Shown piece after piece: positions 1 through 3,000 of a stretch of DNA of 64,000 nt. The stretch comes from Mizuhopecten yessoensis (lineage: Eukaryota): positions 577,888-641,887 of the forward strand of contig NW_018405338.1 of NCBI RefSeq assembly GCF_002113885.1. The letters run 5' to 3'. How positions within the stretch are numbered: the first letter of the stretch is position 1; every line of letters starts with the position of its first letter. Position numbers: made by a program.

Positions 1-3000
1 TACTGACATGATATACCACCTGTCTGTAGAGATCACCTACTGACATGCTACATCACCTGTCTTTAGAGATCACCTACTGACTTGATACATCACCTGTCTG
101 TAGAGATCACCTACTGACATGATTGGTTTTTTTGATAACTTTGTGCTCAGTTTAATTTTCATATATGTTTTACATTTTCATTTTAATGATAGAAATTACA
201 ATTCTGTTTTTTGTGTGTAAAATACCCCCAAATGATTCTCTTCTGCTGGAGAGCTGGGAAGAGAAATAGCTGAATATCTGCAATATTGTTATGTTTTCCG
301 TGGTTTCATTGTGGCCTGCCTGGCTCTCAAATTGTACAGCTTTAGGCTATGTTTGAAATCAAAGTTGGAAGATAACTGCCTCCATAAATCTATTCATATA
401 TGCATATTGATTAGGACATTCCAATCTTTACCGAAAAAGACTGGTTTAGTCGTCCGGCTCTGTCTGGATGATACGTTATAGAAATTGCCTCTGCATATGT
501 CAATATTTGCTTTTACATGAAAAGAATCGGCACAGAGCTCTTCGATTGAGGATGTGAGCCATGTTGCGCAACGTTGTGTAAAAATCCAGTTTGATTTATA
601 GCTTCCTGCGACAATTGTGCGAGGAAAAACAATATTTGATATTAAAATAAGTATGCATTGTGACGGAAGAATATGTCACTATAAATTCAATATAACGGAA
701 GGGTCACTGAGTTCTGTATCAAATAACAGGATCGCTGATTCTGTTTGGTGCAGGACAACAGTTTTACCGCTCCTATCCCAGTGGGCAGTGCCGTGGTAAA
801 TTATCGGGGATGGGTGGGGTAAAGGCTAATGGATTGAAAACATTTTTGTCGTTAAAGCAGTTAGTTACATAGGACATATATAGCCAGGTGCTATAAATAG
901 ACATTATATGCTTAGGGTTTCATCTGCTGGATAACTGAACTTTTCGGTAGTGAAGCGGACGTAACACCGCTCAAACAAACAAACATATATGGTTATAGAG
1001 GACAGGAAACCATGAATTATTTAACTATATGCTTATTGTAAAGAATTATTTGTAGTGATCATGACTAGTCCCCTACTGGAGACTATGGGTCTGAAATGTG
1101 TCTGTCGATATTCTCTACGTTTTGTTAAAGAGTCATATAAACAATTATGATCCGCCATCGTGAGTTTGCGGACCTTTTTCTCCCACAACGTTCAGATAGT
1201 ATGTCTAGAAAACCAGTCTTGGGAATACATTATAAGATAGACCAATGAAATAACGTCCAGGGTGTTGCGCAATAGTGGATTACCAAAAATGTTTACCAAC
1301 TCATGACAGGAGACCTATAGTGGCTGTTGGGGGAATGAATAATGTACCCAAGGGTGTAGAATTTTGGTCAGAACTGAGGCTTTGCTAAGGGGGATAAGGA
1401 AATTTTACTCGAGGGTGTAAATAAAGCCATAGTATTTACTTCTAACTCAAGCTTTGCCAAGGCTCTGATGCCAAATTCTACACCAGAGGGTAGTAACCAC
1501 ATCTTAAGTACATCCCTAACCATTGACTGTTATTTCTATCACCTCATGGCTGAAATTTGGGTTTAACTCATTCACTGACCTGAAGACACATTTAAACTCT
1601 TCCAATTCAAAGGTTGGAATAGTTCATTATTAAATTTTAAGGGTGAATGAGTTAACAACATGTCAACAATACAAATGGAACACTCAATATTCCAAAATTT
1701 CTAAATAATATACACAGCAAAATGACCATATTTGGAAAATCTAAAGAAGCGTAACACAGTTTTTTGACAAGCTTATGCAATATTTCTTATGATCTTGAGG
1801 TGGTGTGTCGGTTTCTGATGTTTTGTTCGGCTTTTGATTGTGACATCACAATGTTATGTCGTGAGTTCCTTGTTATGTCATAAAAGGTAAAGGTCACTGA
1901 GTGCACGTATATGAATTTTCGTTCTAGGACATGTGTATGTTTTATGAATGGAGGAGGGAGAAAATTACTACTCCGCTTCTGTTTTCCTTATTCTCTATCC
2001 CCTTTGTTCTTTGATTCAAAATATTGTCTGAATCTTGTTTTCTATACTATTTCATCAAGAGTAACTAGATTAAATATGCATGTACATTATGGGATGACAG
2101 AGTGCTGCATACATAAGCAGGTCACTTTGACATAAATTTTGACCTTTGACCCCAAAATTGGAAAAAAGAAAATCAGGGACATATCTTTAATACTTTTAAC
2201 TTGGTTTTACTAAAATTGGAATGCAGATCATTTTTGAAAAATTCAACTGCATTATTTATTTTGTGGTTGAATCCTTCAGTGAAAAGTATGAAATTAACAC
2301 TGCCGTGAAAATTTCTTAGCATACACTCTAACGTTGTAAATCTCTATTGATGTTTGTATTGATATTTGCTAATCAATGTTTCTTTTCTTTTCATTCTAGG
2401 TAAGTGGGATCTTTTGAAGACTCCTAGTATGGGTTTTTGTGGATAATATTATAACTGTAAGTATTGTGTACAATGACCTTGTGGACGAAACCTGTGATCA
2501 CTCGGTTTTATTGCTCTGGTGCATTCTTAGTGTCGCCTGTGAAGCAATTAAAGGTGACTTTTTGGGATCACTGACGGCAGCTTTGTCATCCACATAATTG
2601 GTTTCCATGCGATAACTCCAAAAGGAATTATTGAAATTCATGAAGCATTTCTACACATACCTACAGTACCGATTACCTGCTCAAGTTCGATTTGGAATCA
2701 AATCTTGAAATTGACGTAGCCACATTCTGTGGAATTCCTGTTAACGATATTTGTTGTTGGTTGAAATTTACATCTAACATGTTTTGAATTTCTATCAGTT
2801 TCTTATCATTAGGACGACATCATCTAAGATTTGCACAAATGCTCAATCCTTTAGATTTGCATGGTTAGCTGTTATCTGTTATGGGTCTGTGGAACCATGT
2901 GATGGTCCATTGTTGAGATTATAAAATTCCATAAACGCTATTATGGGTAGTTATACAAATCTATCAATATCGCCAAAACATACCAAGTGAGCGCTGCAGG

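What the first reader, a model, noticed from the sequence alone, without database searches (positions are those of the whole stretch)
2369..2464. Ratchet point 1 with an all-frame-stop 57-nt RS-exon
Branch-like CTAAT about 27 nt upstream, a near-pure pyrimidine tract, TAG immediately followed by a perfect GTAAGT, and a second GTAAGTAT at 2457. The enclosed 57 nt has stops in all three frames. It lies upstream of all candidate first exons here, implying another promoter or exon left of the window.
Basis: partly seen in the sequence, partly recalled or inferred. Interest (0 to 1): 0.7.

Follow-up and report, generated by a model that had tools for sequence, protein, structure and literature searches.

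The report
Candidate recursive splice site, with twin
A textbook-looking recursive splice site followed by a short non-coding decoy exon sits at 2.4 kb and has a near-identical twin 60 kb downstream on the same strand, so the window probably lies inside a very long intron that is removed in steps, but no RNA or cross-species evidence could be consulted.

Summary
The all-frame stops carry no weight: 48% of 57-nt stretches starting GTAAGT are closed in all frames.

It has a pyrimidine tract, TAG|GTAAGTGG, and GTAAGTAT 70 nt downstream.

- **Ranking:** the two sites rank first and second of 552 AGGT tetramers on both strands.
- **Chance:** the composite is expected 0-0.0075 times per strand. It was seen twice on +, never on −.
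- **Not repeat copies:** the sites share no sequence outside the splice signals.
- **Fly criteria met:** TT at −5/−6, branch-like A at −27, a roughly 50-nt cryptic exon, and a ratchet donor stronger than the exon donor.
- **Sense strand:** G>C and T>A skew along the window suits + as the sense strand.

Untested: actual splicing, conservation, and the host gene. No exon was recognised among 450 ORFs, and the organism is unidentified.

Verdict: a strong candidate recursive splice site of the known kind.

The parts
2328..2332 (+). Alternative branch-point-like CTAAC, with its A 68 nt before G2399. It lies inside the AG-free stretch.
   Evidence: The AG-free stretch is 78 nt long (2320-2397).
2369..2373 (+). 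Branch-point-like CTAAT, with A2372 27 nt before G2399.
   Evidence: Fly ratchet-point branch points lie at -36 to -21.
2378..2397 (+). Polypyrimidine tract, 18 of 20 pyrimidines, with TT at -5/-6.
   Evidence: Only 0.15% of + strand 20-mers reach 18.
2397..2399 (+). TAG acceptor of the putative ratchet point.
2400..2407 (+). Ratchet-point donor GTAAGTGG, directly after the acceptor.
   Evidence: U1 duplex -11.6 kcal/mol in genomic context.
2400..2456 (+). Putative cryptic RS-exon of 57 nt, closed in all three frames.
   Evidence: The frame closure is expected by chance in 48% of such stretches.
2457..2464 (+). RS-exon donor GTAAGTAT, the exon-definition partner of the acceptor.
   Evidence: U1 duplex -7.3 kcal/mol.
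62563..62567 (+). Second site: branch-point-like TTGAT, with its A 24 nt before G62590.
   Evidence: The AG-free stretch here is 63 nt.
62569..62588 (+). Second site: polypyrimidine tract, 16 of 20 pyrimidines, with TT at -5/-6.
62588..62598 (+). Second site: TAG acceptor followed directly by donor GTAAGTGG.
   Evidence: U1 duplex -11.6 kcal/mol.
62591..62660 (+). Second site: putative cryptic RS-exon of 70 nt. By my reading of the sequence printed it is closed in all three frames.
   Evidence: The chance expectation for such closure is 58%.
62661..62668 (+). Second site: RS-exon donor GTAAGTAT.
   Evidence: U1 duplex -7.3 kcal/mol.

Best explanation
2369-2464 is a recursive splice site (ratchet point) with a short cryptic RS-exon. 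It lies on the sense (+) strand of a transcription unit whose intron is longer than the window.

Proposed mechanism; every step is inferred and none is shown:
1. The 57-nt stretch 2400-2456 is recognised as an exon. Recognition uses the strong acceptor (branch A2372, 18/20 pyrimidine tract, TAG 2397-2399) and the downstream donor at 2457.
2. An exon lying left of the window is spliced to G2400. This removes the first intron segment and places GTAAGTGG directly after that exon.
3. The regenerated donor pairs better with U1 than the donor at 2457, provided the upstream exon ends in AG. It is therefore used in preference, so the 57 nt leave with the next intron segment and never reach the mRNA.
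4. The next acceptor may be the twin site at 62,590/62,591, 60,191 nt downstream, where the cycle repeats.
5. If the regenerated donor fails, the 57-nt exon is included. Because it has stops in all frames, it would act as a poison or untranslated exon.
For: **Sequence criteria of fly ratchet points.** All those I could test are met.
- AG|GTAAGT juxtaposition and a prominent pyrimidine tract.
- TT at -5/-6, read. This holds for 196 of 197 fly ratchet points.
- A branch-like A at -27, inside the fly range of -36 to -21.
- An AG-free stretch of 78 nt upstream of the acceptor.
- A downstream donor making a 57-nt exon. [quoted passage not shown]

**Donor strengths.** The ratchet donor pairs with U1 at -11.6 kcal/mol and the RS-exon donor at -7.3 kcal/mol. 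This is the relation reported for skipped cryptic RS-exons.

**A twin site.** The site at 62,569-62,668 has the same design and the same two donor octamers. The intervening segment of 60,191 nt is within the fly range of 2,596-63,580 bp.

**Rarity.**
- The two sites rank 1 and 2 of 552 AGGT tetramers on both strands.
- The composite is expected at most 0.0075 times per strand and was seen twice on +, never on -.
- Only 5 of 560 same-composition 8-mers have two pyrimidine-preceded copies on +. One of the other four is the same two sites shifted by a base.

**Independent origin.** The only long identical run in the alignment of the two sites is TAGGTAAGTGG. Neither site lies in a listed in-window repeat family.

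**Sense strand.**
- Outside tandem repeats, GC skew is positive in 26 of 29 2-kb bins and AT skew negative in 22 of 29.
- GTRAGT occurs 25 times on + and 14 on -.
- AGGTAAG occurs 7 times on + and 1 on -.

**No coding sequence to contradict an intron.** 450 ORFs gave no Pfam family above its cut-off among those whose cut-off was shown.
Against: - No RNA evidence of any kind could be consulted.
- No eukaryotic genome collection was on hand, so the conservation that defines validated ratchet points is untested.
- No exon of a host gene was found in the window on either strand. That the site lies in an intron is therefore inferred only from skew and motif asymmetry.
- The skew could instead reflect replication direction.
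- The organism is unidentified. Recursive splicing is documented in Drosophila, mouse and human according to the review passages read.
- Motif-based prediction is imperfect. In flies only 6% of introns above the size threshold are recursive, and 91 of 160 conservation-filtered predictions were confirmed. A review cites about 1% of a broad vertebrate candidate set.
- If the unknown upstream exon does not end in AG, the regenerated donor (-6.5 kcal/mol) is no stronger than the 2457 donor (-7.3 kcal/mol).
- My composite definition was fixed after seeing the site, so the simulated probabilities are optimistic.
Confidence: 0.55

Rival explanations
1. The 57-nt and 70-nt stretches are ordinary short non-coding exons of an mRNA or long non-coding RNA. 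They would be 5'-UTR, poison or lncRNA exons, normally included by use of the donors at 2457 and 62661. The GTAAGT at their starts would not be used for re-splicing, or would be repressed, as the exon junction complex does for annotated RS-exons in mammals.
For: - Both stretches have a strong acceptor and a usable donor at exon-like distances of 57 and 70 nt.
- Hundreds of annotated mammalian exons start with a donor-like motif and are kept in the mRNA (abstract of PMC6224609, as listed).
- If the upstream exon does not end in AG, the regenerated donor is no stronger than the exon donor: -6.5 against -7.3 kcal/mol.
Against: - Two exons in one window that both begin with exactly GTAAGTGG would be a large coincidence without selection for re-splicing. 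AGGTAAGT preceded by a pyrimidine tract is expected about 0.09 times per strand.
- In genomic context the ratchet donors pair with U1 about 4 kcal/mol better than the exon donors.
Confidence: 0.15
2. There is no function. The motifs arose by chance in AT-rich, T-biased sequence. Alternatively, the two sites are eroded copies of one old duplicated or mobile element that happened to carry splice-like signals.
For: - The bare motif count is not significant: 7 of 100 shuffles reach 3 YAGGTAAGT, and 42 of 560 permuted 8-mers reach 4 copies.
- The window is full of repeats.
- The two sites share more than the minimal motif: the same GG after GTAAGT, and the same T before and ATT after the second GTAAGT. 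Common descent could explain that.
- Only the 20 largest of 33 direct-repeat families were displayed.
- The composite definition was chosen after the fact.
Against: - None of 1200 simulated sequences had two composites, and at most 0.75% had one.
- The - strand has none.
- The sequences between and around the signals do not align, and the spacing differs, 57 against 70 nt.
- If the sites are old copies, survival of only the splice signals would itself point to selection.
Confidence: 0.2
3. The region encodes something else, such as a structured small RNA or a coding exon on either strand.
For: None found.
Against: - No Rfam family reached its gathering score anywhere in the window, and there are no tRNAs.
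- The fold of 2340-2480 is unremarkable: z = -1.70, and 12 of 200 shuffles fold at least as well.
- The + strand ORF 2418-2594 was among the 150 ORFs that gave no meaningful Pfam match.
Confidence: 0.03

Closest known systems
Drosophila intronic ratchet points with cryptic RS-exons (Ubx, kuz, Bx and others; Hatton 1998, Burnette 2005 and Joseph 2018 as cited in the papers read; Duff preprint 10.1101/006163 read whole; PMC8605326 passages)
   Same: - Pyrimidine-rich acceptor with TT at -5/-6, joined directly to GTAAGT.
- Branch-like A near -27.
- A short non-coding exon (57 or 70 nt here, about 50 nt in flies) closed by a second donor.
- A ratchet donor stronger than the exon donor.
- Two sites in one long stretch, 60 kb apart, within the fly segment range.
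   Different: - The genome is not fly-like. CpG is depleted to 0.44 of expectation with TG and CA in excess. From recalled knowledge this indicates germline DNA methylation, which Drosophila lacks.
- Conservation, junction reads, sawtooth profiles and lariats define the fly set, and none could be tested.
- The host gene and flanking exons are unknown.
Vertebrate recursive splicing through RS-exons (Sibley 2015 as cited; Blazquez 2018, PMC6224609 abstract from the search listing)
   Same: [quoted passage not shown]
- Inclusion would introduce stop codons.
   Different: - According to the passage read, only nine fully suppressed intronic sites were noted definitively in mammals, and most RS-exons are expressed.
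- The very strong pyrimidine tract with TT at -5/-6 is the fly signature.
- Whether this genome is vertebrate is unknown.
Poison or decoy exons in long introns
   Same: A short exon with stops in all frames, flanked by good splice sites inside non-coding sequence.
   Different: Such exons need no donor motif at their first base. Here both candidate exons start with the same perfect donor.

Membership tests
Intronic ratchet point with cryptic RS-exon (fly type) | 3' and 5' splice sites juxtaposed around AG|GT, with a strong donor consensus. | tested here: met
   TAG|GTAAGT at 2397-2405. Rank 1 of 552 AGGT tetramers by a simple composite score.
Intronic ratchet point with cryptic RS-exon (fly type) | A more prominent pyrimidine tract than ordinary acceptors, with TT at -5/-6 (196 of 197 fly sites). 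| tested here: met
   18 of 20 pyrimidines. T2394 and T2395 are positions -6 and -5, read. The twin site has 16 of 20 and also TT.
Intronic ratchet point with cryptic RS-exon (fly type) | A branch point 21-36 nt upstream of the acceptor. | tested here: inconclusive
   CTAAT with its A at -27 and an AG-free stretch of 78 nt. Actual use as a branch point cannot be shown from sequence.
Intronic ratchet point with cryptic RS-exon (fly type) | A downstream donor that defines a short cryptic exon of about 50 nt. | tested here: met
   GTAAGTAT at 2457, giving a 57-nt exon. Only 0.79% of positions have this octamer 25-150 nt downstream.
Intronic ratchet point with cryptic RS-exon (fly type) | A ratchet donor generally stronger than the RS-exon donor. 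| tested here: inconclusive
   U1 duplex energies are -11.6 (genomic context) against -7.3 kcal/mol. After joining to an exon end that does not pair, the value is -6.5. The real upstream exon end is unknown, and MaxEntScan and NNSPLICE were not available.
Intronic ratchet point with cryptic RS-exon (fly type) | Location on the sense strand inside a long intron of more than about 10 kb. | tested here: inconclusive
   No exon was recognised in 64 kb. The skew and donor-motif asymmetry favour + as the sense strand. The host gene was not identified.
Intronic ratchet point with cryptic RS-exon (fly type) | Strong evolutionary conservation of the acceptor-donor core, with poorly conserved exon content. 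| not testable with these tools
   No eukaryotic genome collection was on hand. The only proxy is that the two in-window sites share the signals but not the sequence between them.
Intronic ratchet point with cryptic RS-exon (fly type) | Exon-to-ratchet-point junction reads, a sawtooth read profile, and lariats from the ratchet donor. | not testable with these tools
   No transcript data were available.
Ordinary coding cassette exon | An open reading frame, with a length usually a multiple of three. | tested here: not met
   There are stops in all three frames. The length of 57 nt is a multiple of three, but the twin is 70 nt.

The most novel reading that the evidence does not exclude
The window comes from an animal outside the flies and mammals in which recursive splicing has been documented. 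It is CpG-depleted and rich in minisatellites and MITEs, and my unverified impression is an invertebrate such as a mollusc. On this reading the two twin sites are working ratchet points of one intron longer than 60 kb. That would show that the fly-type design is used far more widely among animals than shown so far. The design comprises TT at -5/-6, AG|GTAAGT, and a roughly 50-70 nt decoy exon with a weaker donor. The identical donor pair at both sites is GTAAGTGG at the ratchet and U|GTAAGTAUU at the decoy exon. It would then hint at a lineage-specific rule in which the decoy donor depends on intronic positions +7/+8 and has no exonic pairing.
Probability: 0.3. Interest if true: 0.6.

Novelty: new member of a known kind. 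Interest (0 to 1): 0.4.

Why it matters
Recursive splicing is hard to see because it leaves no trace in mRNA. According to the review passages read, it has been documented in Drosophila, mouse and human. In the held library, a search for 'recursive splicing' together with 'mollus' found 2 papers, each with a single occurrence of each term (listing only).

A sequence-only candidate this clean, with a twin on the same strand, gives two exact coordinates to test with a few RT-PCR primers or existing total RNA-seq. If confirmed in a non-fly, non-mammalian genome, it would extend the known range of the fly-type ratchet point. It would also mark the window as part of a very long intron whose exons lie outside it, which is useful for annotation. 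If not confirmed, it illustrates how far splice-signal mimicry can go by chance or by descent.

Tried and rejected
- **Coding exons.** I ran Pfam on three sets of 150 ORFs.
  - Set 1 was the 150 longest of 330 stop-to-stop ORFs of at least 50 aa on both strands (333 before a complexity filter).
  - Set 2 was the 150 longest of 203 + strand ORFs of 38-64 aa outside tandem repeats (235 before that filter).
  - Set 3 was the 150 longest of 257 such - strand ORFs (298 before the filter).
  - The best hits were Phage_Gene33 (1.6e-5) and Fib_alpha (2.3e-5). Both lie in minisatellite ORFs and fall below the curated cut-offs. All other hits had E of 0.002 or worse.
- **Homologue searches.** Two ORFs were tried. 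For 22885-23280 (-), 4 candidates shared words and none scored. For 41091-41354 (-), there were no candidates. Only proteins of similar length were searched.
- **Exon-like intervals and frames running into donors**. Nothing looked convincing as coding sequence.
- **RNA genes and structure.** Rfam, the tRNA scan and RNA folding of the site found nothing.
- **Repeat origin.** I considered that the two sites might be repeat copies. The alignment and the repeat search argue against it, though 13 of 33 direct-repeat families were not displayed.
  - The prokaryote-only genome contigs, phage, plasmid and E. coli collections cannot bear on a eukaryotic intron.
  - Structure and complex prediction were not used, as there is no protein in question.
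- **Organism.** I did not try to identify it through paper searches with window sequence.

Full report
**What is there**

On the + strand the sequence holds these elements:
- CTAAT at 2369-2373.
- A tract with 18 of 20 pyrimidines at 2378-2397.
- TAG at 2397-2399, followed directly by GTAAGTGG at 2400-2407.
- 57 nt later, GTAAGTAT at 2457-2464.

The 57 nt are closed in all three frames.

Upstream of the acceptor there is no other AG for 78 nt. That stretch holds two good branch-like motifs: CTAAT with its A at -27, and CTAAC with its A at -68. Positions -5 and -6 are both T, read.

**Is it more than chance?**

Taken piece by piece, not much:
- YAGGTAAGT occurs 3 times against 1.11 expected, and 7 of 100 shuffles reach 3.
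- AGGTAAGT occurs 4 times on + and 0 on -. Of 560 8-mers of the same composition, 42 also reach 4 copies on +.
- The all-frame stops mean nothing. 32.5% of all 57-nt stretches are closed in three frames, and 47.7% of those that start with GTAAGT, which already supplies a TAA in one frame.

The combination is another matter:
- Only 0.15% of 20-mers on this strand have at least 18 pyrimidines. Only 0.79% of positions have GTAAGTAT 25-150 nt downstream.
- I defined a composite as at least 14/20 pyrimidines, then AGGTAAGT, then GTRAGT 25-150 nt downstream. Sequences simulated from Markov models of order 1, 3 and 5 (400 each) gave means of 0.0075, 0 and 0.0025 per strand. None of the 1200 had two.
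- I fixed this definition after seeing the site, so these figures flatter the result. The margin is nevertheless several orders of magnitude.

**A twin site**

The same composite occurs once more, at the other end of the window on the same strand. It comprises:
- 16 of 20 pyrimidines at 62569-62588, again with TT at -5/-6.
- TAG|GTAAGTGG at 62588-62598.
- GTAAGTAT at 62661, giving a 70-nt stretch. By my reading of the sequence it is also closed in all frames.
- An AG-free stretch of 63 nt upstream, with TTGAT motifs whose A lie at -24 and -36.

Further points about the pair:
- The - strand has no such site.
- Among all 552 AGGT tetramers of both strands, the two sites rank first and second by pyrimidine count plus donor matches.
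- Of 560 same-composition 8-mers, only 5 have two pyrimidine-preceded copies on +. One of the other four is the same two sites shifted by one base.
- The two sites are not copies of a repeat. Aligned with 150-200 nt of flank, the only long identical run is TAGGTAAGTGG, and the sequence between the two donors does not align.
- Neither site falls in a listed repeat family. Only the 20 largest of 33 direct families were displayed.
- The other two AGGTAAGT, at 28219 and 51054, have 9 and 10 pyrimidines of 20. They look like plain donors rather than ratchet points.

**Surroundings**

- **Composition.** The window is AT-rich (GC about 0.36) and crowded with minisatellites.
- **RNA genes.** No Rfam family and no tRNA was found.
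- **Coding sequence.** I found none. 450 ORFs were scanned one by one against Pfam in three sets of 150, and nothing exceeded a curated cut-off among those shown. The two best E-values lie in minisatellite ORFs.
- **Homologues.** Two ORFs searched for homologues found nothing.
- **Exon-like intervals.** Acceptor-donor intervals and frames running into donors were unconvincing as coding sequence.
- **No joined model.** I built and searched no joined (spliced) model.
- **Strand asymmetry.** Outside tandem repeats the + strand has G>C in 26 of 29 2-kb bins and T>A in 22 of 29. Donor-like motifs are also commoner on + (GTRAGT 25 against 14, AGGTAAG 7 against 1), while AATAAA is balanced at 63 against 60. 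From recalled knowledge of transcription-associated strand asymmetry in animal genes, this pattern suits + as the sense strand of a unit spanning the whole window. Replication direction could produce it too.
- **CpG depletion.** CpG stands at 0.44 of expectation, with TG and CA in excess. From recalled knowledge this indicates germline methylation, so the genome is not fly-like.
- **Not human.** I do not take the contig for human. It has no families of long dispersed repeats of the Alu or L1 kind and no reverse-transcriptase ORFs, and its CpG depletion is milder.
- **Organism.** It stayed unidentified.

**How it most likely works**

The anatomy matches the published model of recursive splicing through a cryptic RS-exon. 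The passages of PMC8605326 read say:
- The ratchet point is a tandem acceptor-donor pair.
- It heads a short cryptic exon of about 50 nt with its own downstream donor.
- That exon must be recognised before splicing.
- After ligation to the upstream exon, the regenerated ratchet donor usually outcompetes the exon donor, so the exon is skipped.

The Duff preprint, read in full, gives these figures:
- 197 ratchet points in introns of 11,341-132,736 bp.
- Segments of 2,596-63,580 bp.
- Branch points at -36 to -21.
- TT at -5/-6 in 196 of 197 sites.

Here the branch-like A is at -27, TT is present, the exons are 57 and 70 nt, and the segment between the two sites is 60,191 nt.

I could not run MaxEntScan, so I computed pairing energies with the recalled 5' end of U1:
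- Both ratchet donors give -11.6 kcal/mol in genomic context, and -11.7 to -13.2 after joining to an exon ending in AG.
- Both RS-exon donors give -7.3 kcal/mol.
- With an exon end that does not pair, the ratchet donor drops to -6.5.

Skipping of the decoy exon is therefore the expected outcome if the upstream exon ends in AG, as most exons do. All steps of this mechanism are inferred. None is shown.

**Rivals**

- The stretches could be ordinary included non-coding exons whose leading GTAAGT is unused or repressed. Mammalian RS-exons of that kind exist (abstract of PMC6224609 in the listing). Two exons starting with the same perfect donor would then be a large coincidence.
- The sites could be chance, or eroded copies of one element. 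The statistics and the lack of alignable flanks argue against this. My post hoc definition and the extra shared bases around both donors keep the possibility alive.
- A structured RNA or a coding exon finds no support.

**What stayed unchecked**

- Use of the sites in RNA, conservation in other species, the host gene and the organism.
The remaining DNA collections hold no eukaryotic genomes.
- The supplementary tables of the fly papers were closed. They list ratchet-point sequences and scores and would allow a proper motif score.

**Novelty and verdict**

This is a candidate new member of a known kind.
- The recursive-splicing reading is the best explanation at about 0.55 and is partly supported.
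- The stop-codon argument should be dropped.
- The claim about an upstream promoter remains open.

The site gains most of its weight from the twin at 62.6 kb.

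Noticed in passing
window 62569-62668 (+): A second site with the same design as the finding: 16/20 pyrimidines, TAG|GTAAGTGG, then GTAAGTAT 70 nt on.
   Followed up: yes
window 28219-28226 and 51054-51061 (+): Two further AG|GTAAGT sites without a pyrimidine tract (9 and 10 of 20). They look like plain donors, with U1 duplexes of -13.5 and -12.6 kcal/mol. The one at 51056 is preceded by an ATG-started frame of 21 codons. They may be donors of alternative first exons, but nothing confirms this.
   Followed up: partly
window 1565-1655, 9730-9822, 23915-24004, 26043-26133, 36854-36944 (+) and 63027-63103 (-): Six copies of a roughly 90-nt element whose inverted ends begin and end with TTAA. 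It looks like a miniature inverted-repeat transposable element. One copy lies about 700 nt upstream of the finding and does not overlap it.
   Followed up: partly
whole window: Uniform strand asymmetry outside tandem repeats: G>C in 26 of 29 2-kb bins and T>A in 22 of 29. CpG is depleted to 0.44 of expectation, with TG and CA in excess.
   Followed up: partly
window 14584-16952, 10473-11027, 45671-46172, 47811-48792, 40760-41463, 42361-42684 and others: Many minisatellite arrays. Examples are a 32-nt unit repeated 74.5 times, a 38-nt unit repeated 13.2 times at 99% identity, and a 151-nt unit repeated 4.7 times. Several give spurious long ORFs and weak Pfam hits.
   Followed up: partly
window 52300-53450 (+) and 54256-54742, next to the N run 54743-55519: A C/T-rich stretch with GC skew near -0.4 gives proline-rich pseudo-ORFs. 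It is followed by a G/A-rich 49-nt tandem array that runs into the assembly gap. The gap was left as it is.
   Followed up: no
window 22885-23280: A stretch open in several frames on both strands (132 aa on -, 98 and 82 aa on +). It has no Pfam match and no homologue of similar length.
   Followed up: partly
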